Below, piece after piece: positions 4,888 through 17,619 of a stretch of 64,000 nt of DNA. Source of the stretch: Erwinia sp. Eh17-17 (GTDB lineage: Bacteria; Pseudomonadota; Gammaproteobacteria; Enterobacterales; Enterobacteriaceae); NCBI RefSeq assembly GCF_039675725.1, contig NZ_JBDFQT010000004.1, positions 146,881-210,880 on the forward strand, written 5' to 3'. The notes below the pieces were generated by a model, which did no database searches, was not told where the DNA came from, and worked only from the letters and a program-made list of their open reading frames with translations. Position 1 is the first letter of the stretch. The number at the start of each line of letters is the position of its first letter. A program made the translations under genes and the position numbers.

Positions 4888-7059
4888 ATGACCGTGCCAA
4901 TCTCTCGCCCTGAAGTCAGTCATAAAAATGATTCTTTATCCTGCTCCGCCGCCGGTATTTTCACGCCATCGATTGCCGCACTGCTGGTGATGGCTGCGTT
5001 ACAGCCCGCTTTCGCCGCCGATGGCAAAACCACCGACACGCTGACCGTGGAAGCGAATGCGGATACCGCAGCAGCGCAGGCCACCACTGACTACAGCGTT
5101 CCGGTCACCCGTGCAGGCACCAAAATGCCGCTGACGCTGCGCGATATCCCGCAGTCTGCCACGATTGTGACTAAGCAGCGTATTCAGGATCAAAAACTAC
5201 AAAGCATCGGCGAGGTGTTAAGCAACACCACGGGTGTCTCCGCATCTAATATCGATTCAGACCGCTCCAACTACTATTCACGCGGTTTTATGATTAACAA
5301 CTACCTGTTTGACGGCATCCCGACCGTTGTCGACAACCAGTGGGATTTAGGCGATACCGCCGGAGATACGGAGATTTATGACCGTATTGAAGTGATCCGC
5401 GGTGCCAACAGTCTGAGTACCGGTTCCGGTAATCCGTCAGCGTCTGTGAATATGGTGCGCAAACACGCTGACAGCAAAGTGCTGACCGGCAATTTCTCGG
5501 CGGAGACCGGCAGCTGGGACAAACAGCGCTATACGGGTGATATCAGCACCCCGCTTAATGAATCAGGCACTGTCCGTGGCCGGGCTATCGGCGGCTATCA
5601 GGATAACGACAAGTGGATCGATCGCTACAGTGCGCGTAAAAAATTCCTCACTCTGGTGCTGGATGCGGACCTGACGGACTCCACCACGCTGTCGTTCGGC
5701 TGGGACTATCAGCAGAGCCATACCAACGACCCGACCTGGGGCGGATTACCCACCTTCTACTCCGACGGCAGCCGTACCCGTTACGATCGTGAAAACAACA
5801 CCGCAGCAGACTGGACTTACAGCGATAAAGAGTCGAATAAAGTCTTCGCCACCCTGACGCAGAAATTTGATAACGGCTGGCAGGCGCAGGTGAACGGTTC
5901 ACATGCGAAAACCACCTTCGACACCCGGCTGATGAGCTCATACCTCTACCCGGATAAAGCCACCGGGGCGGGCATTGCGCCTTTCGACGGCTGGAATAAA
6001 GGTTCACGTAAAGTGGACGCCGTTGACATCTACGCCAACGGCCCCTTTGAGCTGCTGGGCCGCACTCATGAACTGATGGCAGGCGGTAGCTATAGCAAAC
6101 AGGAGAGCCTGTTCTTTAACTCGTTCTCTGATATTTCTTCTGCCGACGTCAACGGCTTCAACAACTGGGACGGCAACATCGACCAGGGAGACTGGAGCGC
6201 GTGGAAGGTGGAGAAAGACGATACCATTCGTCAGAAGTCAGCCTATACCGCCGCCCGTTTCTCACTGGCTGATCCGCTGTCGCTGTTGGTGGGGGCGCGC
6301 TATACCGACTGGAGAGGCAACGGCACCAGCGGTAACAAAACCAGCAGCAAAATTGCACCCTATGCCGGTCTGACTTATGACATCAACGACACGTATTCGG
6401 TTTACACCAGCTATACCTCGATTTTCCAGCCGCAGACATTCCGCAGTGCGGATGCAAAATACATCGGCGCGGTAACGGGGAAAAGCTATGAAACGGGCCT
6501 GAAGGGGGACTGGAATAACAGCCGTCTGACCGCCACCCTGTCGCTGTTTCGCACCGAACAGAACAACCTGGGCAACAATACTTACGGCACCATCGGCACC
6601 TCAACGGAATACGCGTATGAATCGATTGATGCCGTCAGCCGTGGCGTAGAGTTTGAAGTAAACGGAGCGCTGACCGATAATTGGCAGATGACCTTCGGCG
6701 CCTCACGCTATATTGCTGAACAGCGTAACGGCACCGCCGTGATGCCGGAAATTCCGCGTACCACCGCCAAGCTGTTTACCCGCTATCGTCTGCCGATGCT
6801 GCCGGACCTGACCGTCGGCGGTGGCGTGAACTGGCAGAACAAAACCTGGGCGAACGTTGATGGTGCTCCGGCGGATTACATCGACCAGTCACCGGTAACC
6901 CTGGTGAATCTGTTCAGCCGCTATCAGGTAACGAAGCAGCTTTCGGTTCAGGCAAATATTAACAACCTGTTCGATAAAGAGTATTACGACTACCTCGGCA
7001 CCTATGTGGTTTACGGTGCGCCGCGTAACGTCTCGGTTTCGGCCAACTACTCGTTTTAA
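4888..7059 (+). CDS. TonB-dependent outer-membrane siderophore receptor (FhuE/FoxA-like)
   Basis: Long signal peptide ending ALQPAFA-ADG, plug-domain-like motifs and a C-terminal ...SANYSF aromatic terminus. The ATG at 4888 was chosen as start; an earlier TTG at 4840 is possible. Confidence 0.8.
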   Translation: MTVPISRPEVSHKNDSLSCSAAGIFTPSIAALLVMAALQPAFAADGKTTDTLTVEANADTAAAQATTDYSVPVTRAGTKMPLTLRDIPQSATIVTKQRIQDQKLQSIGEVLSNTTGVSASNIDSDRSNYYSRGFMINNYLFDGIPTVVDNQWDLGDTAGDTEIYDRIEVIRGANSLSTGSGNPSASVNMVRKHADSKVLTGNFSAETGSWDKQRYTGDISTPLNESGTVRGRAIGGYQDNDKWIDRYSARKKFLTLVLDADLTDSTTLSFGWDYQQSHTNDPTWGGLPTFYSDGSRTRYDRENNTAADWTYSDKESNKVFATLTQKFDNGWQAQVNGSHAKTTFDTRLMSSYLYPDKATGAGIAPFDGWNKGSRKVDAVDIYANGPFELLGRTHELMAGGSYSKQESLFFNSFSDISSADVNGFNNWDGNIDQGDWSAWKVEKDDTIRQKSAYTAARFSLADPLSLLVGARYTDWRGNGTSGNKTSSKIAPYAGLTYDINDTYSVYTSYTSIFQPQTFRSADAKYIGAVTGKSYETGLKGDWNNSRLTATLSLFRTEQNNLGNNTYGTIGTSTEYAYESIDAVSRGVEFEVNGALTDNWQMTFGASRYIAEQRNGTAVMPEIPRTTAKLFTRYRLPMLPDLTVGGGVNWQNKTWANVDGAPADYIDQSPVTLVNLFSRYQVTKQLSVQANINNLFDKEYYDYLGTYVVYGAPRNVSVSANYSF

Positions 7060-7077
7060 TAAGATGATTGAACCGAT

Positions 7078-7100
7078 GCCAGCAGCGTCAGGCTGCTGGC
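7078..7100. terminator. Hairpin between convergent genes (receptor / adhesin)
   Basis: gccagcagc gtcag gctgctggc, a 9-bp perfect stem. Confidence 0.4.
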
Positions 7101-7110
7101 ACAGTCCTGA

Positions 7111-7929
7111 TTAAAAATATTTGATAACCATAACGGTAGAACCGCTGAAAGGGCCCGCTTTTGTCGCCATGTCGGTGTTAATCGTACTGCGGATATGCAC
7201 CAGGTTATCGCCGCCAAGGCTGTTAATCCAGCCATCAGTGCTTTCAACCACATCCATTTTGGACATCATCCCGTTAGATAAATCGATATTATCATCGATA
7301 AACTCCAGCCTCATTTTCATGGCGCTGGAACACCTGAAGTGAAAAGCCACGCTCTTTTGATGAAGGCCAGATGACATATTCAGGGTTGCAAAATCAATCT
7401 TCAGATCAGACTGGTCGGTATCGCACCACTGTTCCCCAGGCGGTAGCTCATAGCAGGTACTTAAGGGCATCTGTACAGAAGCCCACGCCTGAAGTTGCTG
7501 CCCTGCCCCCACGCCGATGCAGGCGTTCAGGTTATCATAAGTAATATAAGAAGACGGTAGCATCCCCTTCTCATAAACCTCCCGGGCATAATCGCCAATC
7601 GTCCCGCCTGGACTGCCTACAATGATGGTCTTAAAGGGCACAACCGTCTTTGGTTCATTATAAATATGGCCGATGTCACGACTCACACGTATCACGGTAC
7701 CCACGCGCGTAGGGGGTATAATCGGAACTTCGCTATCTGGCCCCACTTCGCGCAGCCCCCACCTGACCCCGTGTATCGTGGAGACCCATGGGAAGCCTGG
7801 AGAAATTGTTATTGAATCAAACCCGATCATTACGGGATAAAGCCCGGCCCGACAGGTTGATGCTGTGAGTAATAACAGCCAGCAAAAAACGGCTGATTTT
7901 AGTTTCATCATATTTTTACCTGAACCCAA
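7111..7929 (-). CDS. Fimbrial tip adhesin, copy B (two-domain, FimH/PapG-like architecture)
   Basis: Signal peptide MMKLKSAVFCWLLLLTASTCRA; C-terminal pilin domain ending VIKYF. The C-terminal ~150 aa are about 90% identical to gene 8307..9110, while the N-terminal (lectin) domains differ. Confidence 0.75.
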   Translation of the reverse strand: MGSGKNMMKLKSAVFCWLLLLTASTCRAGLYPVMIGFDSITISPGFPWVSTIHGVRWGLREVGPDSEVPIIPPTRVGTVIRVSRDIGHIYNEPKTVVPFKTIIVGSPGGTIGDYAREVYEKGMLPSSYITYDNLNACIGVGAGQQLQAWASVQMPLSTCYELPPGEQWCDTDQSDLKIDFATLNMSSGLHQKSVAFHFRCSSAMKMRLEFIDDNIDLSNGMMSKMDVVESTDGWINSLGGDNLVHIRSTINTDMATKAGPFSGSTVMVIKYF

Positions 7930-7944
7930 AGATCATTACTCATA

Positions 7945-8290
7945 CTCAATGGTAAAATTGGCAACGGCGGAAAATGACCCTTCGTTGATATTTTGTTGAG
8001 AAACCGCGCCGAATCCAGCGTCGATATACATTTTCAGAGTCAACATATAATGACCATTGAGGGATTGACTTTCAGTGCCCGATAACGTCGTTTTAATTAT
8101 ATTTTCATCAAGCTGATAAAAATAAAAAACAGATGAATGAGTAAAGATAGCATTTAAAAATAGTTTTAAATAGCTTTAAAAAAGACAAAAAAAATCATGT
8201 TACTGGAATAAATTACACATACCCGTACTCAATTACCATGTAAAAACATATTTTCTCCAGCAACATCAGGCACACAGAAAATTAATGCAA
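7945..8290 (-). pseudogene. Decayed remnant of a minor pilin gene (paralog of 9140..9658)
   Basis: 7945..~8075 aligns to 9135..~9270 (the 3' end of the pilin gene) and 8225..8290 aligns to 9575..9650 (the 5' signal-peptide region). The middle is deleted or AT-rich and no intact ORF remains. Confidence 0.6.
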
Positions 8291-8306
8291 CGACCGATTA
8301 TCGTCA

Positions 8307-9110
8307 TTAAAAATATTTGATAACCAGAATGGTAGAACCGCTGAAAGGGCCCGCTTTTGTCGCCGTGTCGGTGTTAATTGTGCTGCGGATATGCACCAGA
8401 TTATCGCCAGCACTGCCGTTAATCCAGCCATCACCGCTTTCTACCACATCCATTTTAGACGTCATACCGTTAGATAAATCGAAATTATTATCGATAAATT
8501 CCAGCCTCATTTTCATGGCGCCGGTACACCTGAAATGAAAAGCCTCGCTCTTTTGGTGAAGGCCAGATGACATATTCAGGGTTGCAAAATCAATCTTCAG
8601 ATCAGACTGGTCGGTATCGCACCACTGTTCCCCAGGTGGTAGCTCATAGCAGGTACCTGTGGGCATCTGTACCGTTGCCCACAGGCTGTGATGCATCCCG
8701 GCCCCCACGCCTAAACAGGGCATCATGTTATTAAAAGTAAGATTTTTCGGTAGCATGCCCTTCGCATACATTTCCCGGGCATAGTCGCCAACCGACCTCC
8801 CAGGTTTGTCTACAGCGATCTTAGAATAGGCCATAGTAATAATTTGATCCGAAGTAGGGTCGCCGCCTTTACGAAAACTACGAGTCACTACACCTACATA
8901 CGTTGGGGCTATAATCGGAGTTTCGCTATTTGGCCCCACTTCGCGCAACCCCCACGTGACGCCCATTAGCGAGGAAACATATGGAAAAACGCCAGTACTG
9001 GGTGTTAGTATTGAGTTAAATCCAACCACTACGGGATAAAGCCCGGCCCGACAGGTTGATGCTGTGAGTAATAACATCCCGTAAAAAATGATCCGCTTTA
9101 GTTTCATCAT
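8307..9110 (-). CDS. Fimbrial tip adhesin, copy A
   Basis: Paralog of 7111..7929 sharing the C-terminal pilin domain (CYELPPGEQWCDTDQSDLKIDFATLNMSSGLHQKS... VIKYF) with a different receptor-binding domain. Confidence 0.75.
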   Translation of the reverse strand: MMKLKRIIFYGMLLLTASTCRAGLYPVVVGFNSILTPSTGVFPYVSSLMGVTWGLREVGPNSETPIIAPTYVGVVTRSFRKGGDPTSDQIITMAYSKIAVDKPGRSVGDYAREMYAKGMLPKNLTFNNMMPCLGVGAGMHHSLWATVQMPTGTCYELPPGEQWCDTDQSDLKIDFATLNMSSGLHQKSEAFHFRCTGAMKMRLEFIDNNFDLSNGMTSKMDVVESGDGWINGSAGDNLVHIRSTINTDTATKAGPFSGSTILVIKYF

Positions 9111-9139
9111 ATTCTCATACCTGTTAAACCCAGAAATAA

Positions 9140-9658
9140 TTATTCATATTCAATAGTAAAATTGGCGACGGCGGAAAACGAACCTTCTTTGATATTTCGT
9201 TGAGAAATCGCGCCGGGTTCAGCTTCGACATAGGCTTTGAGAGTGACAACATTATTACCATTGCTGATATTTTTAAGCACTGTGGTCTGTCTCAGGGGTA
9301 AGGCAGCCCCCTGCGCATCCTGCAAACCGATAGCAATACCGGAAGCCTTACTGCCAGCATCCAGAGCCAGTAATCCCGGAAGGGATTTGCTTTCAGTGCC
9401 CGTGAACTTTATTTTAATGATATTCCCTACAGAGGTGTCACAATCAATAAAGCGGATACTAAAAGGCTTAGAGGGTGTTCGGGTGTATGAGTAAAGATCG
9501 CGATTAGCAATAGTTTTAAAATCCACAGAAACGTATTCATCTTCTGGTAATAAAGTACATGCATTCTGTACTAACGTGCCATGTAAAAACATATTCTCTT
9601 CAGCAACCGCAGGCACACAGGAAACTAACACAACGACCAGCGCGAATAATTTAATCAT
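9140..9658 (-). CDS. Fimbrial minor subunit / adaptor pilin
   Basis: Signal peptide MIKLFALVVVLVSCVPAVA and the pilin C-terminal motif ...FTIEYE. Confidence 0.7.
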   Translation of the reverse strand: MIKLFALVVVLVSCVPAVAEENMFLHGTLVQNACTLLPEDEYVSVDFKTIANRDLYSYTRTPSKPFSIRFIDCDTSVGNIIKIKFTGTESKSLPGLLALDAGSKASGIAIGLQDAQGAALPLRQTTVLKNISNGNNVVTLKAYVEAEPGAISQRNIKEGSFSAVANFTIEYE

Positions 9659-9675
9659 TTAAAACCTCCTCTCCA

Positions 9676-10230
9676 TTACCGATAATCGACCAGCAGAGTT
9701 GCAGTAGCATTAAAGTCACCCGTGCTTAATACTGCTCCCGGTCGCTTGACAGGCACGGCGGTTAACCTGGGTTTTTTTTCATAGTCAAATTCCATCCAGT
9801 CATTGATCACCTGTCTTTTACCATTGATAAATAATGCGATACCGAAGTCATCGACATTTGTCGTCAAAGCAGTCTTATCAAAAGATGTCGAAGTCCCTGC
9901 AATCTTCATTCGCATGGGATTAGAGATATTACCCTTACAAACCAAAGTGTAAGGGATATTTTTTTTATAATTTTTCCCGTCAACCCTGGCGATAGCAACA
10001 TGGTCGCCGAAATTGACATCAATCATCTTTTCGCCATTAATGACGCAGGATATCTGGGCAATCAAAACCCCACTCACGGTCACCAACGTTTGGGCCTGAG
10101 CAACGTTCCCCCCCTGTAAAATAAGAAAAAAAGCAATACTGCGAAGATAATTCGAAGAAGTAAGTTTTAATAATTTCGCAAATAAAAGCCTCAGATTAAG
10201 GGAAGTCACCACGCTATTTTCCTTAGTCAT
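9676..10230 (-). CDS. Fimbrial minor subunit
   Basis: Pilin-like C-terminus ...LLVDYR; position within the operon. The start is uncertain. Confidence 0.6.
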   Translation of the reverse strand: MTKENSVVTSLNLRLLFAKLLKLTSSNYLRSIAFFLILQGGNVAQAQTLVTVSGVLIAQISCVINGEKMIDVNFGDHVAIARVDGKNYKKNIPYTLVCKGNISNPMRMKIAGTSTSFDKTALTTNVDDFGIALFINGKRQVINDWMEFDYEKKPRLTAVPVKRPGAVLSTGDFNATATLLVDYR

Positions 10231-10822
10231 AACTTAACCGAAAGTTAACTACCGCCCAAAATGCTCCCGCAACTAAAGGGGCAATGGTACGCTCAGCCAC
10301 CACGGTATAAGTCAGTACATTTTGACCCGGCGTGACCAGCAGCGGCTTACCGCGGCTACCCAGGCGGACATCACGGCCTTCAGGATCCATCAGGTGTAAT
10401 GCCAGGCCAGATACCCCCTGCACTTTAACTAACCGGGGATTATCCATGTCCGACACGGCACGAAAACTTAACGTCACCGAAGGTTGATGAATGGCGGTAA
10501 TCAATGCTCCGGTACGTTCATCACGCTGGCTTAGCGTGGTGCGCAGGCAATCTTGCAGGCGCAGTTTAAAACTGACCGGCGTTCCCTGAGCGCCGGGCTT
10601 GATCAGACGCCCGGTGCCGGTTTCACCTAAGTCGATCTCCTGCGTGGCGCTATCCATTTCCAGACGACAGGCGCTCTCAGTCAGCGCACCATAAACATAA
10701 AGCACACCATTAGCCCCTTCAACATTCCAGTTATCTGTCGCATGTGAGGGTGGCGTAGTGAAAATAAGCGTACATAACAGCAATATTATCTGCAGAAAAC
10801 CGCGGCTGGCATGGCGCCTCAT
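10223..10822 (-). CDS. Fimbrial minor subunit
   Basis: C-terminus ...NFRLSYD. The likely start is MRRHASRGFLQIILLL, a signal peptide. Confidence 0.6.
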   Translation of the reverse strand: MRRHASRGFLQIILLLCTLIFTTPPSHATDNWNVEGANGVLYVYGALTESACRLEMDSATQEIDLGETGTGRLIKPGAQGTPVSFKLRLQDCLRTTLSQRDERTGALITAIHQPSVTLSFRAVSDMDNPRLVKVQGVSGLALHLMDPEGRDVRLGSRGKPLLVTPGQNVLTYTVVAERTIAPLVAGAFWAVVNFRLSYD

Positions 10823-10926
10823 TCCTTTAAGACAGCCCATTAGCTCATCACCCTCGTAATAATATTTATCCATTTATATTACCTTTTCGATCGTCAGCAT
10901 GAACGCGGCAACAGGTCACTTTCCGT

Positions 10927-11694
10927 TCAGGACTTTTCAGGAATAACCTTACAGGTGCTTCCCTCACAGTGGAAACTCAACTGTGGGTAACCGCCATAAT
11001 CATTAATATAAGTCAGAACAGGTGTATTTCCGACGACAGGGGCACTGACACTCAGCTCCGACTCCCCTTTAGGCGGCACCATAAAGGGTACAAAGTCTTT
11101 CGGACCTCTGGTTTTGACTTTATTACTGGCATCCACAATGGTGACATAATAGGGAGTCGGATTATTGACGATGAATTTATTGCCCTTTTTGCTCAACGTC
11201 AGCTGCTCCTGCCACGGAGATTGATTACTTTTAGGCATAATCGATGCGGGACGATAAAATAACTTAATCCTCGTCTGAAGGGCAATCTGCAACGTATTTG
11301 ATTTATCGCTTCTTGGTGGAATCTCACGTAGATTAAAGTAAAATATTGTCTCACGGTCCTGGGGCAAACCCGCAACAGCCGGCAATGCCTGGATTTTCAC
11401 CTGACCGGGTTTTCCCGGTTCAACACGCTGCACGGGAGGTAACACAATGAGCGGGCTTTTAATTTTATTCCCTTCTTCATCTTCAAGCCACCCCTGAGCA
11501 AGATAGGGCAACTGTTTATTCTGGTTGCTAATTCTCAAACTAACCGACTTCTGGCTGCCATCGAATATAACGCGAGTACGGTCAAGGGCAATGGCAGCAT
11601 GGCCTTGTTGCACAGCGACCATGACGAACAATGCAGAATAAACTGTTTTTTTCAGAGCGCTAAGCATGATATCGATTACTCCATAAACCATCAT
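10927..11694 (-). CDS. Periplasmic fimbrial chaperone (PapD/FimC family)
   Basis: Signal peptide followed by ...AIALDRTRVIFDGSQKSVSLRISNQ..., the conserved chaperone N-domain. About 250 aa. Confidence 0.85.
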   Translation of the reverse strand: MMVYGVIDIMLSALKKTVYSALFVMVAVQQGHAAIALDRTRVIFDGSQKSVSLRISNQNKQLPYLAQGWLEDEEGNKIKSPLIVLPPVQRVEPGKPGQVKIQALPAVAGLPQDRETIFYFNLREIPPRSDKSNTLQIALQTRIKLFYRPASIMPKSNQSPWQEQLTLSKKGNKFIVNNPTPYYVTIVDASNKVKTRGPKDFVPFMVPPKGESELSVSAPVVGNTPVLTYINDYGGYPQLSFHCEGSTCKVIPEKS

Positions 11695-11798
11695 AATGTT
11701 TTTATACTTTCCCAGTAAAATTGATAATAAATATTTTTATCGCGTTCATACATCCTCAGCCCGAAGCTGGGGAATAAAATCTCTTAACTATTTGATCA

Positions 11799-14339
11799 CT
11801 ACTGCTCACCTTCATTTTCTTTTAACGAAATGGTTTCTTTTAAAAGAGTACAAGGCAACAACAGATTTTGCGTAAAATATTTTGACACAGAAACAGGAAT
11901 CTCCACTTCACACTGTGCTTTTCCATCCCAGTTTACCGTCATGCTCTCACCGGGATTAACGCCGGTAATATAAACGCTGCCGTTATCGTTAATGATGCCC
12001 GTTTGCTGTTTACGCCGGTTAAACACTTCTGAACCAAAAGGCGGATAACTACCATCACCCAGGCGGATAATAGCCATCATTTTCATACCTGAAATGACGC
12101 TAAATTTGCGGTAACCAATCGCACCTTCTGTTAATGTGGCCTGCACAACCGACTTGGTGGCCTCTGCATTTTCCGGCAGATTATTAATGTCGATTCTGAC
12201 CTGATTATGATAATAGTCACTAATATTCCCGACGACAGCCTTACCCCAGGAATTGGTCCTGATAGCGGCGCCATAGCCTGCAACAGGAATATCCGCAACG
12301 CCCTGAGTATCCAGCAACAGCCGCGTTGCTCCCTCAGTGGTGACCGGATGAAGCGCACCACCTTTAGGTGTTATTGTTGCTCCACCCTGAGCGGAAATAC
12401 CCACTGAGCTGTACTCGCTTTCCTTATAGCTGGCATTGGCACTCAGATGCGCGATATCACCTTCATGATCGTAATACCCACTCAGCTGGCCGCCATTGCG
12501 AGAAATGCCGGTTTGCAGTTGATAAGAGTTATTTTCATCAACACGATCGTAATATCCCACCGTGTGGGAAGTATCACGACCATTCACCGACAGGTTGTAA
12601 CTCAGGCTCGCTCCGGTGCTCAAAGGAAGCGACAGTGAAAGATACATACCATTATCGTCGCGGCCATTATATTTATTGCGGAACGCTGATAGTGACGCAC
12701 TCGCGTTCTTAAACTTCCAGATATCAAAATAGCGGGATAACGTCATGCTGTAGCGGTCGGTCGTTGGGCGATTCCAGTAAGTCTGGTGGCTATAGTTCAG
12801 GTAAGCGCTCAGCCCACTGTCGCGGAACTGTTTATTGAAAGTAATGGTGTACATTTCCTTGTTACTTTGCTGACGCGTACCGTAGTAGCGCGCATCCAGA
12901 TATTCACTCATACTCATGAAATCCTTTTGCGAGAATCTGTAACCGGCAAAGGTGACCTGGCTGTCAATTTCTTCAAACGTTTTTGAGTAACTCAAACGAT
13001 ACGAACCACCTTTAAGCGTCCCCCCAGTTTGCGGTAAATGGGCCCATGACTGCGTGGCATCCAGAGCTAAGGCACCAAATATCATCAGGTCACGTCCGAC
13101 ACCAAACGACAAGGCGTTGTAGTTATTACCCACCAGCGCACCGCCGTACATTGACCAGCCGTTACTGATCCCCCAGGAGAACTCGCCGGTACCGAACAGT
13201 GGACCGCGCGAATGATGCTCGAAATCAGAGGGTTTCCCCGCTGCAATTTTGAAGCGTATCGTTCCGGGGCGTGTCAGATACGGTACATTCGCCGTAGTGA
13301 CCTTAAATTCCTGAACGCTGCCATCCTCTTCTTCTACCCTGACCATCAGATCGCCCGTTACGGCGTCATTCAGGTCCTGGATACGAAATGGCCCAGAAGC
13401 TACCTGGGTTTCATACAGTACGCGCCCCTGCTGGCTAACGGTAACTTTGGCGTTAGTTCTTGCAATGCCGACAACTTCTGGCGCATAGCCACGCAGATTA
13501 GGCGGCAACATTTTATCGTCCGATGCCAGCGTCACCCCAGTGAAACGGAAGCTGTCGAATAGATCAGAGTTTAGATAGTTCTCACCTAGCGTCAGTTTGG
13601 AACGCAGTGATGCAATAGCCCGGTAAGCATAATACTGGCTCCAGTCCCAGTTAGTCCGCGTATTGCCCTTTGAACCGCTATACTTTTCCATTCTTGCCTG
13701 CCAGTTCGCACGAAAACGCCACGCTCCCAGGTTCGCCCCGAGAGTACCGTTACCGCTGACGTTGTAATTTGAACCGGAGTGCTGCTGATGCTGTGATTGA
13801 GCATTTACGTTGTAATCAAGCAGCAAACCAGGGATACCATTATCCCAATGGGAGGGAGGTTCCCAGTCGTCGGAAGAGTACTCCAGATAGGCCTGGGGAA
13901 TGCTTAAATAAAGAGCCGCCTCTGAAAGGTCAGCATGAACACTGGTCCCTTTGATGCTGTCTGGATTCAGGCACTGATTATCATGCCACCACGTTAGCTT
14001 CTCTGCTATTTCTGGCTTCAGACCAAGCAGTTCCAACTGTTCATGTGTAATACAGGCTTCACTTCCGGAGGGATCGTCATCCGGGGGATAGAAATTTACC
14101 GGTTGGTCGGGCACTTCATTTTTATTAATGTGTAAGTCCATATTGTAGGCACCGGGCATGATGTATCCGCGCCGGGAAAACCTGCTCAGGTCAATGTTTT
14201 TCTTGTCGTTAACATCCAGAATGTCCATATTGAACTGGATATTATCCGCAGAATAGACAGATGGGCTTGCTAATGCGATAAATACCAAGATACTGACAAT
14301 TTTAACTCTGGACACGCTCTCCGTAGAATATAAAAACAT
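11799..14339 (-). CDS. Outer-membrane fimbrial usher (PapC/FimD family)
   Basis: 846 aa with the N-terminal usher motif NIQFNMDILD... and a usher-like C-terminal domain. It lies between a pilin gene and the chaperone, i.e. Pap-like order with usher before chaperone. Confidence 0.9.
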   Translation of the reverse strand: MFLYSTESVSRVKIVSILVFIALASPSVYSADNIQFNMDILDVNDKKNIDLSRFSRRGYIMPGAYNMDLHINKNEVPDQPVNFYPPDDDPSGSEACITHEQLELLGLKPEIAEKLTWWHDNQCLNPDSIKGTSVHADLSEAALYLSIPQAYLEYSSDDWEPPSHWDNGIPGLLLDYNVNAQSQHQQHSGSNYNVSGNGTLGANLGAWRFRANWQARMEKYSGSKGNTRTNWDWSQYYAYRAIASLRSKLTLGENYLNSDLFDSFRFTGVTLASDDKMLPPNLRGYAPEVVGIARTNAKVTVSQQGRVLYETQVASGPFRIQDLNDAVTGDLMVRVEEEDGSVQEFKVTTANVPYLTRPGTIRFKIAAGKPSDFEHHSRGPLFGTGEFSWGISNGWSMYGGALVGNNYNALSFGVGRDLMIFGALALDATQSWAHLPQTGGTLKGGSYRLSYSKTFEEIDSQVTFAGYRFSQKDFMSMSEYLDARYYGTRQQSNKEMYTITFNKQFRDSGLSAYLNYSHQTYWNRPTTDRYSMTLSRYFDIWKFKNASASLSAFRNKYNGRDDNGMYLSLSLPLSTGASLSYNLSVNGRDTSHTVGYYDRVDENNSYQLQTGISRNGGQLSGYYDHEGDIAHLSANASYKESEYSSVGISAQGGATITPKGGALHPVTTEGATRLLLDTQGVADIPVAGYGAAIRTNSWGKAVVGNISDYYHNQVRIDINNLPENAEATKSVVQATLTEGAIGYRKFSVISGMKMMAIIRLGDGSYPPFGSEVFNRRKQQTGIINDNGSVYITGVNPGESMTVNWDGKAQCEVEIPVSVSKYFTQNLLLPCTLLKETISLKENEGEQ

Positions 14340-14399
14340 AATAACCAGCCTGTAATATCCCTATAAATTACACCATGCCGATCATAGCCTTATCAGCAC

Positions 14400-14948
14400 T
14401 CAATAATAATCCATTTTAAAACGTATTATTGAATAGAATCTCCCAGACTTTAACTTCTTAGAGTTGGAGACTAATTTTATCCTAAAATTAAGATCCTTAT
14501 TCCCTTCAATAATATCTTCAGCAGGCATAGCCACACCTGGCAATGCTTTTTTGTTAGTGCTATCGATTATTTCAAGCGCGATACCCTTCGCATCACCTTT
14601 GACCGAAAAAAACCTGCCATCTGCATCCGTATCGCCATCAAATGTCACTTGAAAGCTATGCCAGTCAGGTCGATGTGGATCAACATTAGCCAACTCACAA
14701 TTTATTAACTTAATACTAAAAGGGTATTCCATTCCATGGTTGTTAAGCAGAATGCTACTCGCCGGAACTGTCTTCATATCGATAGACTGGGAACGACTGC
14801 CTGTAGCAATAGCACAGGCGGTGTTAATAATAGACCCGTGCATGCTCACATGCCCCCAACCTTGCGTCGATTTAGCAGCCTGTGACTGGAAGGGTGTCAG
14901 TACCAGTAAAATGTATAGCATGCACACATTGAATATAAACTTCCTCAT
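14400..14948 (-). CDS. Fimbrial subunit (PapH-like position)
   Basis: Signal peptide MRKFIFNVCMLYILLVLTPFQSQA and the pilin C-terminal motif ...FKMDYY. Confidence 0.65.
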   Translation of the reverse strand: MRKFIFNVCMLYILLVLTPFQSQAAKSTQGWGHVSMHGSIINTACAIATGSRSQSIDMKTVPASSILLNNHGMEYPFSIKLINCELANVDPHRPDWHSFQVTFDGDTDADGRFFSVKGDAKGIALEIIDSTNKKALPGVAMPAEDIIEGNKDLNFRIKLVSNSKKLKSGRFYSIIRFKMDYY

Positions 14949-15033
14949 TGGCGCCTTCCCTATGCCAACATTTTTATTTAAATGGCATGCGATATAATGA
15001 CATGCCATTTAAATGTCAGACCAGGATAACTAG

Positions 15034-15573
15034 TTACTGGTAGGCGAGAGTAAAGTCTGCAACAGACTGGAAATCGCCAGGCTTGATATCCGCATCATTG
15101 CCTTTCAGGTAAGCAGAGAAGCTTAAGGTATTGTCACCATTTTGCAGCTGCTGCGCTTTAGATGGCTGCCCTAAAGTGATGTTCTGACCAGAACCATCAG
15201 TAATCGCAATACCTGCACCCTTCGCGGTACCCGTAATACCCAGCAAACCATCTTTCGCTGAAGATTCCATACCGGTAAAGGTCAGGGTAACATTGTTATT
15301 TTTACCCGGATCAACGGAAACCAGATCGCAGTTTTCCAGCTTAATGGTGAACGGACGAGGTGTGGACTGACCACCATCTTTCAGCGCAACGTTAGACACT
15401 GGGCCCAGGTCTACGGTCTGAGCAACTGAATCAGGTTTAATTGAGCAAGGCGCATCAATGATAGAACCTTTAAATGTTACAGTACCATGCCCTTGATCTA
15501 CTACAGCTGCCTGAGCCAGTGAAACAGAGCCGAAAGCCATAACTGCAGCAAGCATGAATTTATTCAATTTCAT
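15034..15573 (-). CDS. Major fimbrial subunit (FimA/PapA-like)
   Basis: MKLNKFMLAAVMAFGSVSLAQA signal peptide, conserved Cys pair and the ...FTLAYQ terminus. It is the first gene of the operon. Confidence 0.85.
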   Translation of the reverse strand: MKLNKFMLAAVMAFGSVSLAQAAVVDQGHGTVTFKGSIIDAPCSIKPDSVAQTVDLGPVSNVALKDGGQSTPRPFTIKLENCDLVSVDPGKNNNVTLTFTGMESSAKDGLLGITGTAKGAGIAITDGSGQNITLGQPSKAQQLQNGDNTLSFSAYLKGNDADIKPGDFQSVADFTLAYQ

Positions 15574-16560
15574 ATAATGTTCCTATCCTTAGTATAGAAA
15601 AATCAACATCCAAGATTTAACTTCCGTTAGTGCCATCAGTAAGTGAAAACAGATGACCACGCTAAACCCTTTAGCGTATTACAAAAAGTCAGTATCAGAC
15701 TGGCAATACCCATCGCTTTTTGTCCCCACAATTATTACCAGGTTCAGGGAACAATTAAAGTCAAAATTGATGAAATCAGAAAAACAATATAAAAAACCCA
15801 GTATCAAGGCCAATTTTTAATTTTTCGATCTATAAAATCGCAGGACAACAACAACTCAGAATTAAATATCGCAATACACAACCTGTAAACACATTGATCT
15901 AAAATCATTACTCTGGATGAATTTTTATTCCAACTCACCTCGCGCACGATGGTGTAACCGTCAGCTTTTCAGGCCTCTTTTTCCTGTGACCATTTACTGC
16001 TATCAATAATGATGCAGACCGTGCAGAGCCCGCCTCTTCCGGGGGTTATAAAACTATTAGCCGGTTTTTTATACTTTTTCATCTGTGCGTTGCATTAGCT
16101 TAATAAGTAAAACTCAGCCGTACCGTCACCCTCTGCTACGCGTGCAATAAAAAGTAGAATAAATGCTATATTTAGCAAAAAAAATAAAATAACTTACAAA
16201 TACCTTACTTCTTTGGGGCTATAAATGGTCTATTTTGTATTAAATAGAAATATAATGTTTATTTTTGTAATCTACAGACTTTCATTTTATATATAAAATA
16301 TCCTGACAAATCCGATCAGACACACTGGCCATTGCCCTGATTGCCGGATCGATTACACTCCTCGCCGCTCTCATCTCGCTACCGAGCGCCGCATCATTTG
16401 CATGCTTCTCTAACCGCAAGAATTATAAGGTTAATTTATTTAGTCATCCGTGCCATCCGTATCCAGCTGAAGATTTAGCCTTTCGGTTTCAAGAAAATTC
16501 CTAACAGGTTTTATTTTTTCCGATACACTGCAGCATTGATCGGCTCAATGTCGCGTACAC
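15574..16560. promoter_or_regulatory. ~1 kb AT-rich ORF-free region between the fimbrial operon and the divergent diguanylate cyclase
   Basis: No ORF of 60 aa or more on either strand. Very AT-rich, as in H-NS/Lrp-type fimbrial switch regions. Contains two GATC sites 69 bp apart at 15827 and 15896. Confidence 0.5.
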
Positions 16561-17619
16561 ATGCACTATTATTCCCCCGATGACACACAGTTAAAACAGC
16601 GCTCTGTACGCTTTATTCGTCGCATGTTCGCCATGCGACAATTGGGCACTTTTTTGTGTTTTTTCCCATTTTTGTCGGTACTGACTGAGCTGGACCGGGG
16701 ACTGTGGCTGGCTATCCTGCTGGCGATTAATGCCTTTATCTGGCCGGTCATTGCCTGGATTCTGGCACACTCCTCACGCGACCCGACCAACACCGAGCGG
16801 CGTAATCTGACCGTCGATGCGGCCTTTGGCGGGGTCTGGGTGGCGCTGATGGGCCTCAGCCCCGTTCCCTCTTTCATCATCATGGCGGTGCTGGCCTCAG
16901 ACCGCTATGCGGCCGGTGGCTGGCCGCAGCTGAAATCAGCGATCGCCGCTTTCCTGCTGGCGTTTATTCCAGTGTGGAGCGTGGCAGGGATGCCGCTGGT
17001 AAGCACCTTCAGCACGCGCACCGTCTGGCTGACCCTGCCGCTGGCCACCTGCTATATGCTGGTCCTGAGTGCGGTTTCCTATCAGTTGACCCTGACACTG
17101 CGCCGTAAGAATCGTGAGCTGGAACGCATCTCGCTGATGGACCCCAGCCTGAAAATCCCTAACCGCCGCCTGTTCGACCGTCGGCTGGAAAGCGAATACC
17201 TGCGCACCCAGCGCGGCGACAGCCATGCGTGGCTGATGCTGCTGGATGTAGATAACTTCAAACAGGTGAATGACCGTTTCGGCCATGAAGCCGGGGATTA
17301 TCTGCTGGCGGAGATCTCACGCCTGCTGCGCAATGAGGTTGGCACGCGCGATATTCCGGCGCGCTTCGGTGGCGATGAACTGGGGGTGATTGTGCGCGAT
17401 GCAGACCACAACAGCATTGTGATCCTCGCCGCGACGCTGAAAGAGAAAATCGCGCAGATCCGGCTTCCCGCCGCCCCGGACTTTCAGTGTTCGGTGAGCG
17501 TCGGCATTGCCCCGGCAGGCACAGCCGACTCTATTCACCAGTGGCTGCGCAATGCCGACCAGGCGCTGTATAACGTCAAGCGCACCGGCCGGGACGGCAT
17601 CCATCTCTGGAATCCCTGA
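16561..17619 (+). CDS. Membrane diguanylate cyclase, MASE2-GGDEF architecture (AdrA/DgcC-like)
   Basis: The N-terminal membrane domain aligns with AdrA (KQRSVRF... / ...NLTVDAAFGGVWVALMG). The C-terminal GGDEF domain has the active-site variant RFGGDELGV. Confidence 0.8.
   Translation: MHYYSPDDTQLKQRSVRFIRRMFAMRQLGTFLCFFPFLSVLTELDRGLWLAILLAINAFIWPVIAWILAHSSRDPTNTERRNLTVDAAFGGVWVALMGLSPVPSFIIMAVLASDRYAAGGWPQLKSAIAAFLLAFIPVWSVAGMPLVSTFSTRTVWLTLPLATCYMLVLSAVSYQLTLTLRRKNRELERISLMDPSLKIPNRRLFDRRLESEYLRTQRGDSHAWLMLLDVDNFKQVNDRFGHEAGDYLLAEISRLLRNEVGTRDIPARFGGDELGVIVRDADHNSIVILAATLKEKIAQIRLPAAPDFQCSVSVGIAPAGTADSIHQWLRNADQALYNVKRTGRDGIHLWNP

What the first reader, a model, noticed from the sequence alone, without database searches (positions are those of the whole stretch)
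7111..9658. Tandem duplication of a minor-pilin plus tip-adhesin cassette with one pilin copy decayed; two adhesins share a pilin domain but have different lectin domains
Adhesin genes 7111..7929 and 8307..9110 are about 90% identical over their 3' halves (the pilin domain, CYELPPGEQWCDTD... to VIKYF). Their 5' (receptor-binding) halves are clearly different.

The 377-bp gap between them contains recognisable 3' and 5' fragments of the minor pilin gene 9140..9658, with the middle lost.

This is the footprint of a two-gene cassette duplication followed by diversification of the adhesin. One fimbria could display alternative tip specificities, or the conserved 3' block could serve as a substrate for gene conversion.
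Basis: seen in the sequence. Interest (0 to 1): 0.6.

Follow-up and report, generated by a model that had tools for sequence, protein, structure and literature searches.

The report
Duplicated fimbrial tip-adhesin cassette in Erwinia
A fimbrial operon in an Erwinia chromosome carries a tandem copy of its last two genes, leaving one dead pilin gene and two intact, diverged tip adhesins of the MrpH type; this is a clean example of a known way that fimbriae evolve, not a new kind of system.

Summary
Window 7111-9658 (minus strand) is the 3' end of a Pap/MR-P-type chaperone-usher operon. It reads: intact minor pilin, adhesin A, pilin remnant, adhesin B.

- **Duplication:** the two cassettes align over about 1.2 kb (blastn E=0).
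- **Remnant:** it lacks a Shine-Dalgarno site, has deletions of 117 and about 29 nt, has stops in frame, and carries about 5x the local SNP density.
- **Adhesins:** the pilin domains are 89% identical in protein and 92% in DNA. The receptor-binding domains are 53% identical but clearly homologous, so they are not "different" domains.
- **Family:** both are distant MrpH relatives that lack all three zinc-binding histidines. The most diverged stretches sit where MrpH binds its ligand.
- **Recombination:** synonymous divergence drops from 0.45 to 0.08 around an 80-nt identical block. One metagenome contig carries a single chimeric adhesin (A head, B tail) that switches inside that block. That contig has 4x coverage, so a misassembly is not excluded.

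Best reading: an old in-situ duplication gives one fimbrial shaft two alternative tip adhesins, and the shared 3' block recombines. Salmonella ste shows the same pattern. Function is inferred, not shown. Interest is modest.

The parts
9140..9658 (-). Intact minor pilin (172 aa) at the MrpG/PapF position. It is the subunit expected to dock onto the adhesin's pilin domain, and it is the source copy of the duplicated pilin.
   Evidence: Pfam Fimbrial PF00419, E=1.6e-16. It is 38-44% identical to the gene just upstream of mrpH in Proteus and Providencia loci. The identical protein occurs on at least 23 public contigs.
8307..9110 (-). Adhesin A (267 aa): signal peptide, receptor-binding domain (about 8652-9041) and pilin domain (8310-8651). 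It is identical to Erwinia sp. Eh17-17 ABEH87_13170.
   Evidence: ORF. AF2 mean pLDDT is 89.8. The pilin domain matches the PapG pilin domain, Foldseek TM 0.67. hhalign against MrpH orthologues gives 99.2% probability. Cluster member P0108 is identical.
7930..8306 (-). Decayed second copy of the pilin gene. The ATG is retained and overlaps the adhesin A stop (TAATG). The 5' fragment is 8134-8306, the middle fragment 8060-8103, and the 3' fragment with its stop codon about 7939-8059.
   Evidence: blastn and MAFFT against 9140-9658. The Shine-Dalgarno site is lost. The 5' end is 8 nt shorter than the intact gene (gaps of 3 and 5 nt). There are deletions of 117 nt and about 29 nt. Stops occur in frame. 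SNP density is 12.7-15.2 per kb, against 0-5.4 per kb in most neighbouring genes. No terminator-like or promoter-like site lies on the operon strand.
7111..7911 (-). Adhesin B (266 aa, ATG at 7911): receptor-binding domain (about 7456-7842) and pilin domain (7114-7455). It is identical to Erwinia sp. Eh17-17 ABEH87_13165.
8557..8636 (-). 80-nt block in adhesin A that is identical to 7361-7440 in adhesin B. It is the likely gene-conversion tract, and the crossover interval of the chimeric contig L016 lies inside it.
   Evidence: Longest identical run; permutation p=2e-4 for the whole gene and 0.027 within the C-domain. dS is 0.077 in codons 148-190. In L016 all discriminating sites are A-type before this block and B-type after it.
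7361..7440 (-). The partner 80-nt identical block in adhesin B.
9030..9076 (-). 47-nt block (end of the signal peptide and start of the mature protein) that is identical to 7831-7877 in adhesin B. With the 80-nt block it brackets the variable head.
   Evidence: Second-longest identical run. Many k=31 Logan contigs end exactly 64 nt into adhesin A, where a 31-mer first becomes shared between A and B.
7078..7100 (.). GC-rich hairpin (GCCAGCAGC-GTCAG-GCTGCTGGC) between adhesin B and the convergent TonB-dependent receptor gene. It is the probable end of the operon transcript.
   Evidence: Read directly from the sequence. It was not called by the consensus terminator scan because it has no T-run. 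This part is an inference.
9676..15573 (-). Rest of the operon: major pilin 15034-15573, 202-aa subunit at the MrpB/PapH position 14400-15008, usher 11799-14339, chaperone 10927-11694, and minor pilins 10223-10873 and 9676-10230.
   Evidence: Pfam Usher, PapC_N, PapC_C, PapD_N, PapD_C and Fimbrial. The layout is collinear with Proteus and Providencia mrp loci. It is a low-GC island, 41-52% against 54-59% in the flanks.

Best explanation
This is an old in-situ tandem duplication of the last two genes of a horizontally acquired Pap/MR-P-type chaperone-usher operon in Erwinia sp. (Eh17-17 or a near-identical strain). The duplicated unit runs from the start codon of the MrpG-like pilin to the stop codon of the adhesin.

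The junction lies in a TTTTAA(A)TG microhomology. The second pilin copy therefore kept its ATG but lost its ribosome-binding site, and it has since decayed.

Both adhesin copies stayed intact. Each has an MrpH-type head without the zinc histidines, and a PapG/MrpH-type pilin domain.

Only one adaptor pilin, one chaperone and one usher remain, so both adhesins must keep a compatible pilin domain. That domain is under purifying selection and is patchily homogenised by gene conversion. The heads diverged symmetrically and almost neutrally, fastest in the two segments that form the ligand site in MrpH.

Inferred function: the operon is transcribed through the remnant. Each fimbria is capped by either A or B, so the cell displays two binding specificities on one shaft type.

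The shared 3' block also allows homologous recombination that collapses the pair into a single chimeric adhesin.
For: SHOWN

- Collinear similarity runs from the pilin ATG to the adhesin stop, and it starts exactly at the junction.
- The remnant is non-coding, with indels and about 5x the background SNP density.
- Both adhesin ORFs are intact in the window, L001 and L017, and in the NCBI genome.
- Between-strain changes in B are 3 synonymous plus 1 in the signal peptide.
- dN/dS is 0.33-0.37 in the pilin domain and about 0.94 in the head. It is 1.86 in codons 61-100, which is not significant.
- Divergence of the two heads is symmetric: 28 A-derived against 26 B-derived changes.
- dS is 0.445 in the head, 0.077 in codons 148-190 and 0.216 in codons 191-268. 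The 80-nt identical run has p=2e-4. Fisher p=0.006 for synonymous differences, head against tail.
- Chimeric contig L016 has a single switch inside the identical block and a 1196-bp deletion relative to the window.
- No terminator-like site lies in the remnant.
- Precedent: Salmonella ste carries tandem adhesins, and some strains have a recombinant single adhesin (PMC3373541).

INFERRED

- Co-transcription, alternative capping, and different receptors.
Against: - There are no expression or binding data, so adhesin B could be poorly expressed. It sits behind 377-395 nt of untranslated RNA and has a weak SD-like AGGT.
- dN/dS near 1 in the heads fits relaxed constraint as well as diversifying selection. 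The local excess (1.86) is not significant (p=0.2).
- The chimeric contig has only 4x coverage and joins across an 80-nt exact repeat, so it may be an assembler misjoin.
- No close outgroup allele exists. The nearest relative is 35% identical among 15 billion proteins. In-situ duplication therefore cannot be formally separated from insertion of a foreign allele.
- Lower dS in the tail could partly reflect selection at the nucleotide level rather than conversion.
Confidence: 0.72

Rival explanations
1. One adhesin copy, most likely the distal B behind the dead pilin, is a silent or redundant relic on its way to loss. The locus then functions as a single-adhesin operon.
For: B follows 377-395 nt of untranslated remnant with no promoter-like site. 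Head dN/dS is about 0.94, which fits relaxed constraint. The L016 contig shows that the pair can collapse to one gene.
Against: Both ORFs are intact in every assembly that covers them. The pilin-domain dN/dS of 0.33-0.37 is below 1 (Fisher p=0.029 for codons 191-268). Divergence is symmetric, 28 against 26. Within-species changes in B are 3 synonymous and 1 in the signal peptide, while the adjacent true pseudogene has 3-5x more SNPs. With dS at 0.2-0.45, a neutral 800-nt ORF would very likely have acquired a stop or a frameshift.
Confidence: 0.15
2. The second cassette did not arise in situ. It is a divergent allele imported from another strain or species and integrated next to the resident copy. 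Alternatively, the head of one copy was replaced by recombination.
For: The pattern is mosaic: conserved 47-nt and 80-nt blocks bracket a head with dS 0.445, against 0.08-0.22 in the tail. The whole operon is a low-GC island.
Against: Similarity is collinear over the whole unit, including the pilin remnant and the pilin-adhesin spacer, at about 73-82%. That is comparable with the synonymous divergence of the heads. Both heads share the derived loss of all three zinc histidines, which the ten closest family representatives retain. No donor-like sequence exists in 5.8 billion clusters or 1.84 billion representatives.
Confidence: 0.1
3. The pair is a dedicated switching system, in which programmed recombination between conserved blocks exchanges adhesin heads, as in antigenic variation.
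For: Conserved blocks flank the variable head. A recombinant allele is seen.
Against: No recombinase gene or convincing invertible element lies near the operon. Only one recombinant contig is known, it is a simple deletion product, and no reciprocal chimera is in the database. General RecA-type recombination between tandem paralogues explains the data.
Confidence: 0.03

Closest known systems
MrpH, tip adhesin of Proteus mirabilis MR/P fimbriae (PDB 6Y4E/6Y4F; PMC7444556)
   Different: All three zinc ligands (His72, His74, His117) are absent in both copies: A has T-R-S and B has I-R-V at the HxH site, and neither has a His at the third position. The Cys60-Cys66 pair is absent. The Pfam MrpH_C score is below threshold (12-14 bits against 27). 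Foldseek finds no significant PDB match for the head. There is no MrpJ regulator or MrpI switch at this locus. The host is Erwinia, not the Morganellaceae.
Salmonella enterica ste fimbrial gene cluster (pi clade), as described in PMC3373541
   Same: [quoted passage not shown] Some strains carry a single adhesin whose size and composition suggest recombination between the two. That is the same pair of states seen here: the window against L016.
   Different: It is a different adhesin family and host. No pilin pseudogene remnant or recombination breakpoint was described in the passage I read. I did not compare the sequences.
PapG, tip adhesin of E. coli P pili
   Same: The C-terminal pilin domain is the best solved-structure match by sequence profile (E=4e-7) and by fold (2wmp_B, TM 0.67). 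The overall operon logic is the same. PapG variants also differ mainly in the receptor-binding domain (my own knowledge).
   Different: The PapG head is a larger galabiose-binding lectin domain unrelated in sequence to these heads. PapG classes are alleles or sit in separate operons, not in tandem within one operon (my own knowledge).
MrpH_C-type adhesin pair in locus L014 (GCA_036352655.1)
   Same: It is another operon of the same family with two MrpH_C-type adhesin genes. One of them (P0003) is the closest relative of the window adhesins, at 31-34% identity.
   Different: The two L014 adhesins show no blastp similarity to each other. They are separated by a PglL/Wzy_C-like gene and a GerE regulator, so they are not a recent tandem duplication. 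P0003 keeps the HKH motif.

Membership tests
Chaperone-usher fimbrial operon of Pap/MR-P (pi-type) layout | Outer-membrane usher with PapC_N, Usher and PapC_C domains | tested here: met
   11799-14339: PF00577 E=8e-170, PF13954 E=8e-41, PF13953 E=1.5e-12
Chaperone-usher fimbrial operon of Pap/MR-P (pi-type) layout | PapD-like periplasmic chaperone | tested here: met
   10927-11694: PapD_N E=3e-37, PapD_C E=1e-15
Chaperone-usher fimbrial operon of Pap/MR-P (pi-type) layout | Gene order: major pilin, PapH/MrpB-position subunit, usher, chaperone, several minor pilins, then a distal two-domain adhesin | tested here: met
   ORF map. Collinear tblastn matches to Proteus, Providencia and Pantoea loci L003-L013. 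MrpH orthologues follow the MrpG-like gene there.
MR/P operon proper (Proteus mirabilis mrp) | MrpJ-type HTH regulator after the adhesin, and an MrpI recombinase with an invertible promoter element upstream | tested here: not met
   The operon ends at adhesin B, followed by a hairpin and a convergent TonB-dependent receptor gene. The upstream neighbour is a MASE2-GGDEF protein. Only a weak AT-rich 17-nt inverted repeat is present.
MrpH-type two-domain tip adhesin | Full-length homology to MrpH | tested here: met
   hhalign of the family alignment A3 (first rows are adhesins A and B) against seven MrpH orthologues: probability 99.2%, E=1.3e-19, 250 columns. Those orthologues match 6Y4F at E=1e-63.
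MrpH-type two-domain tip adhesin | C-terminal pilin domain matching Pfam PF24223 (MrpH_C) at the curated threshold | tested here: not met
   hmmscan gives 13.8 and 12.0 bits (E=0.06 and 0.21) against a cut-off of 27. The database's precomputed annotation does list PF24223. The fold matches the PapG pilin domain.
MrpH-type two-domain tip adhesin | N-terminal receptor-binding domain with the MrpH fold | tested here: inconclusive
MrpH-type two-domain tip adhesin | Zinc site formed by His72, His74 and His117 | tested here: not met
   At the HxH position A has T-R-S and B has I-R-V. Neither has a His at the third position. The ten closest family representatives all keep H[KR]H.
MrpH-type two-domain tip adhesin | Conserved Cys128-Cys152 disulfide closing the head, followed by a proline-rich linker | tested here: met
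   C132, C154, P158 and P159 of adhesin A are invariant across the 29-sequence family alignment. This is sequence evidence only; disulfide formation was not tested.
MrpH-type two-domain tip adhesin | Second disulfide, Cys60-Cys66 | tested here: not met
   Neither copy has cysteines in the corresponding stretch.
Tandem segmental duplication with one pseudogenised member | Significant collinear DNA similarity between adjacent units | tested here: met
   blastn: 80% over 969 nt (E=0), 73% over 165 nt (E=2e-21), 82% over 44 nt (E=6e-8). Similarity begins at the junction.
Tandem segmental duplication with one pseudogenised member | Disrupted reading frame and relaxed constraint in the dead copy | tested here: met
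   Deletions of 117 and about 29 nt, an 8-nt loss near the start, stops in frame, and loss of the SD. SNP density is 12.7-15.2 per kb, against 0-5.4 per kb in most neighbouring genes, in two independent comparisons.
Gene conversion or homologous recombination between tandem paralogues | Local loss of synonymous divergence, with an identical tract longer than chance would give | tested here: met
   80-nt identical run, permutation p=2e-4. dS is 0.077 in codons 148-190 and 0.445 in the head. Fisher p=0.006.
Gene conversion or homologous recombination between tandem paralogues | An observed recombinant allele | tested here: inconclusive
   L016/P0109 is a clean A-head/B-tail chimera flanked by the pilin and the TonB-dependent receptor gene. 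It is a 4x-coverage SPAdes contig that joins across an 80-nt exact repeat, so a misassembly is not excluded.
Lectin (carbohydrate-binding) adhesin | Demonstrated or structurally evident glycan-binding site | not testable with these tools
   There is no match to any solved lectin domain. The ligand of the nearest relative, MrpH, is unknown (PMC7444556).

The most novel reading that the evidence does not exclude
These are MrpH-fold tip adhesins that have dispensed with the zinc site said to define the class. After duplication, the two paralogues are diversifying at the former metal and ligand site, giving one fimbria type two metal-independent specificities. The conserved blocks that bracket the head let natural populations move between a two-adhesin state and a single chimeric-adhesin state by homologous recombination.
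Probability: 0.3. Interest if true: 0.5.

Novelty: new member of a known kind. Interest (0 to 1): 0.3.

Why it matters
Tip adhesins decide what a fimbria sticks to. This locus captures the standard evolutionary route in one place:

- duplication of the adhesin module,
- death of the redundant pilin,
- constraint on the part that must fit the shared assembly machinery, and
- free divergence of the binding head.

It also offers a possible natural recombinant.

The locus further shows that the statement that zinc-binding histidines are strictly conserved in MrpH-like adhesins (PMC7444556) does not hold for more distant relatives. That matters if zinc chelation or MrpH-directed inhibitors are proposed as general anti-adhesion strategies.

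For Erwinia biology it points to two candidate surface-binding specificities worth testing on plant or insect hosts. None of this overturns current understanding.

Tried and rejected
- **E. coli genomes:** megablast of 7000-9700 found no match.
- **Exact look-ups:** the window's adhesin A and P0002 are not on record. The relatives were reached through P0001, P0109 and P0110 instead.
- **GTDB species representatives:** the 29-sequence alignment was too diverse to scan with. A scan with the two-adhesin alignment found no relative, so this species or locus is absent from that set.
- **JGI metagenome contig scan:** no relative found.
- **PDB sequence searches:** profiles of the pair, the family and the heads gave only the PapG pilin domain and no hit for the head. 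Foldseek on the head gave nothing significant.
- **Positive selection:** dN/dS is 1.86 in codons 61-100, but Fisher p=0.2, so it is not claimed.
- **Asymmetric divergence (neofunctionalisation of one copy):** rejected, 28 against 26.
- **Internal promoter or terminator in the remnant:** none found by the consensus scan.
- **RNA genes:** there are no Rfam families or tRNAs anywhere in the window.
- **Truncated adhesin A in the JGI genome (219-aa call):** rejected. The DNA encodes the full 267 aa, and only the gene caller's start differs.
- **Literature on strain Eh17-17:** none found.
Full report
**What is at the locus**

Window 7111-15573, minus strand, is a complete chaperone-usher fimbrial operon. 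In order it contains:

- major pilin, 15573-15034;
- a 202-aa subunit at the PapH/MrpB position, 15008-14400;
- usher, 14339-11799 (Pfam Usher E=8e-170);
- PapD-type chaperone, 11694-10927;
- three minor pilins, 10873-10223, 10230-9676 and 9658-9140;
- adhesin A, 9110-8307;
- a 377-nt spacer;
- adhesin B, 7911-7111.

A GC-rich hairpin at 7078-7100 separates the operon from a convergent TonB-dependent receptor gene.

The operon has 41-52% GC, against 54-59% in the flanking chromosomal genes. Those flanks include gluconate 2-dehydrogenase, a TonB-dependent receptor, a MASE2-GGDEF protein, pitA-like, uspB and prlC-like genes. It therefore looks like an acquired island.

Adhesins A and B are identical to the adjacent NCBI proteins ABEH87_13170 and ABEH87_13165 of Erwinia sp. 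Eh17-17. The window is that genome or a near-identical one.

**Checking the observation**

blastn of the distal unit (8306-7095) against the proximal unit (9680-8290) gives three collinear matches:

- 73% over 165 nt;
- 82% over 44 nt;
- 80% over 969 nt, covering the last 124 nt of the pilin gene, the pilin-adhesin spacer and the whole adhesin.

MAFFT shows what is missing from the remnant. The upstream Shine-Dalgarno site is gone, the 5' end of the coding sequence is 8 nt shorter than the intact gene (gaps of 3 and 5 nt), about 29 nt net are lost in the first third, and 117 nt are lost from the middle. The remnant has stops in frame and no ORF of 50 aa or more on the operon strand.

Similarity to the intact gene starts exactly at the junction. 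TTTTTAATGACGA follows the adhesin A coding sequence, and TTTTAAATGATTA lies at the start of the intact pilin gene. The duplicated unit therefore runs from the pilin ATG to the adhesin stop, and the join lies in a short microhomology. The new pilin copy kept its ATG, which overlaps the adhesin A stop, but lost its ribosome-binding site.

The layout is reproduced at 99.6-99.7% identity, without gaps, in independent assemblies: L001, L017, L018 and L002. In two independent strain comparisons the remnant carries 15.2 and 12.7 SNPs per kb, against 0-5.4 per kb in most neighbouring genes. That is what a neutral relic should show.

**The two adhesins**

- Overall protein identity is about 70%.
- The pilin domain (from CYELPPG) is 88.6% identical in protein and 92.4% in DNA.
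- The mature head is 52.7% identical in protein and 66.9% in DNA.
- The heads align end to end with three single-codon gaps. The AF2 models (pLDDT 89.8 and 91.9) show the same order of secondary-structure elements.

They are therefore diverged paralogues of one fold, not different domains.

| Region (codons) | dN | dS | dN/dS |
|---|---|---|---|
| Head (24-147) | 0.42 | 0.445 | 0.94 |
| Head, local peak (61-100) | 0.702 | 0.377 | 1.86 (Fisher p=0.2, not significant) |
| Tail (148-190) | 0.040 | 0.077 | 0.52 |
| Tail (191-268) | 0.079 | 0.216 | 0.37 |

Using the rest of the family as an outgroup, the two heads have changed equally, 28 against 26. Between strains, adhesin B shows three synonymous changes and one signal-peptide change. 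Both copies therefore look maintained.

**Family placement**

Word-indexed search of 5.8 billion protein clusters finds only these two proteins. Exhaustive HMMER search of 1.84 billion representatives finds 104 clusters. The nearest is 35% identical, and about 30 align over the full length.

The family consensus carries H-R-H, a later H, ECVGY and C..PP. These sit at the spacing of MrpH's His72, His74, His117, Cys128, Cys152 and proline linker (PMC7444556).

I extracted true MrpH orthologues from Proteus and Providencia loci found through the usher. They match 6Y4F at E=1e-63. Comparisons with them gave:

- hhalign of the family against the orthologues: probability 99.2%, E=1e-19, over 250 columns.
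- hhalign on the heads alone: probability 66%, E=6e-5, with all motifs in register.
- The tail matches the PapG pilin domain by profile (E=4e-7) and by fold (TM 0.67).
- Pfam MrpH_C scores below its threshold.

The important departure is that both window adhesins lack all three zinc histidines. A has T-R-S and B has I-R-V at the HxH site. The ten closest representatives all keep the motif.

Both copies share this loss, so it most likely predates the duplication. The least conserved stretches between A and B are codons 71-100 (27% identity) and 121-130 (30%). They correspond to the two MrpH segments that make its ligand site: residues 72-82 and 116-118, which include N82 and R118.

**Recombination**

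Synonymous differences are significantly rarer in the tail than in the head (Fisher p=0.006). An 80-nt stretch is identical between A (8557-8636) and B (7361-7440). Permutation gives p=2e-4 over the whole gene and 0.027 within the tail. A 47-nt identical block lies at the signal-peptide/mature junction. Together these conserved blocks bracket the variable head.

The 90% cluster of adhesin A contains P0109, a 267-aa protein with the A head and the B tail. Its contig, L016 (ENA ERZ27336791, 2394 bp), reads pilin 3' end, chimeric adhesin, TonB-dependent receptor gene.

In a three-way alignment, apart from two isolated sites at the extreme ends of the aligned stretch (outside the coding sequence), every discriminating site before the 80-nt block is A-type and every one after it is B-type. 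L016 is 1196 bp shorter than the window. This is what homologous recombination between the paralogues would produce, and it mirrors the Salmonella ste situation (PMC3373541).

The caveat is that L016 is a 4x-coverage SPAdes contig joined across an exact repeat, so a misassembly cannot be excluded.

Conversely, many k=31 Logan contigs that carry the intact pilin stop exactly 64 nt or 504 nt into adhesin A. Those are the points where a 31-mer first becomes shared between A and B. This implies that both copies are present in at least ten further sequencing runs.

**Mechanism, shown and inferred**

Shown: the duplication, the pilin decay, the maintenance of both adhesin ORFs, domain-specific constraint, and local homogenisation.

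Inferred from established chaperone-usher biology: a two-domain adhesin has no N-terminal extension, so it can only be the first subunit of a fibre. Each fibre therefore carries A or B, not both.

Both adhesins must be bound by the single chaperone, must activate the single usher, and must accept the donor strand of the single remaining MrpG-like pilin. This explains why the tail is conserved and why conversion there is tolerated.

Co-transcription of B is inferred from the absence of terminator-like sites in the remnant. Expression of B may still be lower than that of A.

**Comparison and verdict**

Tandem duplication of subunit genes is common in this operon class. The MrpF-like pilin is present in two or three tandem copies in the Proteus and Providencia loci. 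Locus L014 has two unrelated MrpH_C-type adhesins. Salmonella ste has tandem adhesins and recombinant singles.

The finding is therefore real and correctly interpreted, but it is a new member of a known kind. The modest extra interest lies in the zinc-less MrpH-type heads and in the possible natural recombinant.

Noticed in passing
L014:4393-8792 and L015:7644-10784: Related MrpH-type fimbrial operons are followed by a PglL_A/Wzy_C gene (O-antigen-ligase or O-oligosaccharyltransferase-like) and a GerE-family regulator. In L014 these two genes sit between two unrelated MrpH_C-type adhesin genes. This might point to pilin or adhesin O-glycosylation.
   Followed up: no
L003:14662-15370 (Pantoea sp. 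1.19): The operon with the closest usher (63% identity) ends after the MrpG-like pilin and has no adhesin gene. The next gene is a convergent ORF that I did not characterise. The adhesin module therefore appears to be gained or lost independently of the assembly genes.
   Followed up: partly
L004-L013, about 14100-15700 in each locus: The MrpF-like minor pilin is present as two or three tandem paralogues in Proteus and Providencia mrp-type loci. Tandem duplication of distal subunit genes seems routine in this operon class.
   Followed up: no
window 7000-16500: The whole fimbrial operon is a low-GC island, 41-52% GC against 54-59% in the flanks. It is inserted between a TonB-dependent receptor gene and a MASE2-GGDEF diguanylate cyclase gene (16561-17619).
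   Followed up: partly
window 15782-15798 and 16063-16079: A 17-nt inverted repeat (88% complementary) with arms 264 nt apart lies in the AT-rich region upstream of the major pilin gene. Its size resembles that of the MR/P invertible promoter element, but no recombinase gene is nearby and it may be a chance match.
   Followed up: partly
window 14400-15008: The 202-aa ORF at the MrpB/PapH position has no Pfam match even at E=10. It does hit MrpB-position genes in related loci at 30-47% identity. It also shows an unusually high SNP density against L017: 7 SNPs in 609 bp, or 11.5 per kb.
   Followed up: no
L021-L028 (Logan contigs), ends at adhesin A nt 64 or nt 504: Short-read k=31 contigs from many runs break exactly where the A and B copies become identical. 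This is a practical sign that this duplication fragments assemblies, and it could also create chimeric joins such as L016.
   Followed up: partly
window 7911-7929; L017:8946-9605: Start-codon calls are inconsistent. The mechanical ORF for adhesin B starts at the TTG at 7929, but homology supports the ATG at 7911. The JGI gene caller shortened adhesin A to 219 aa although the full 267-aa ORF is intact.
   Followed up: yes
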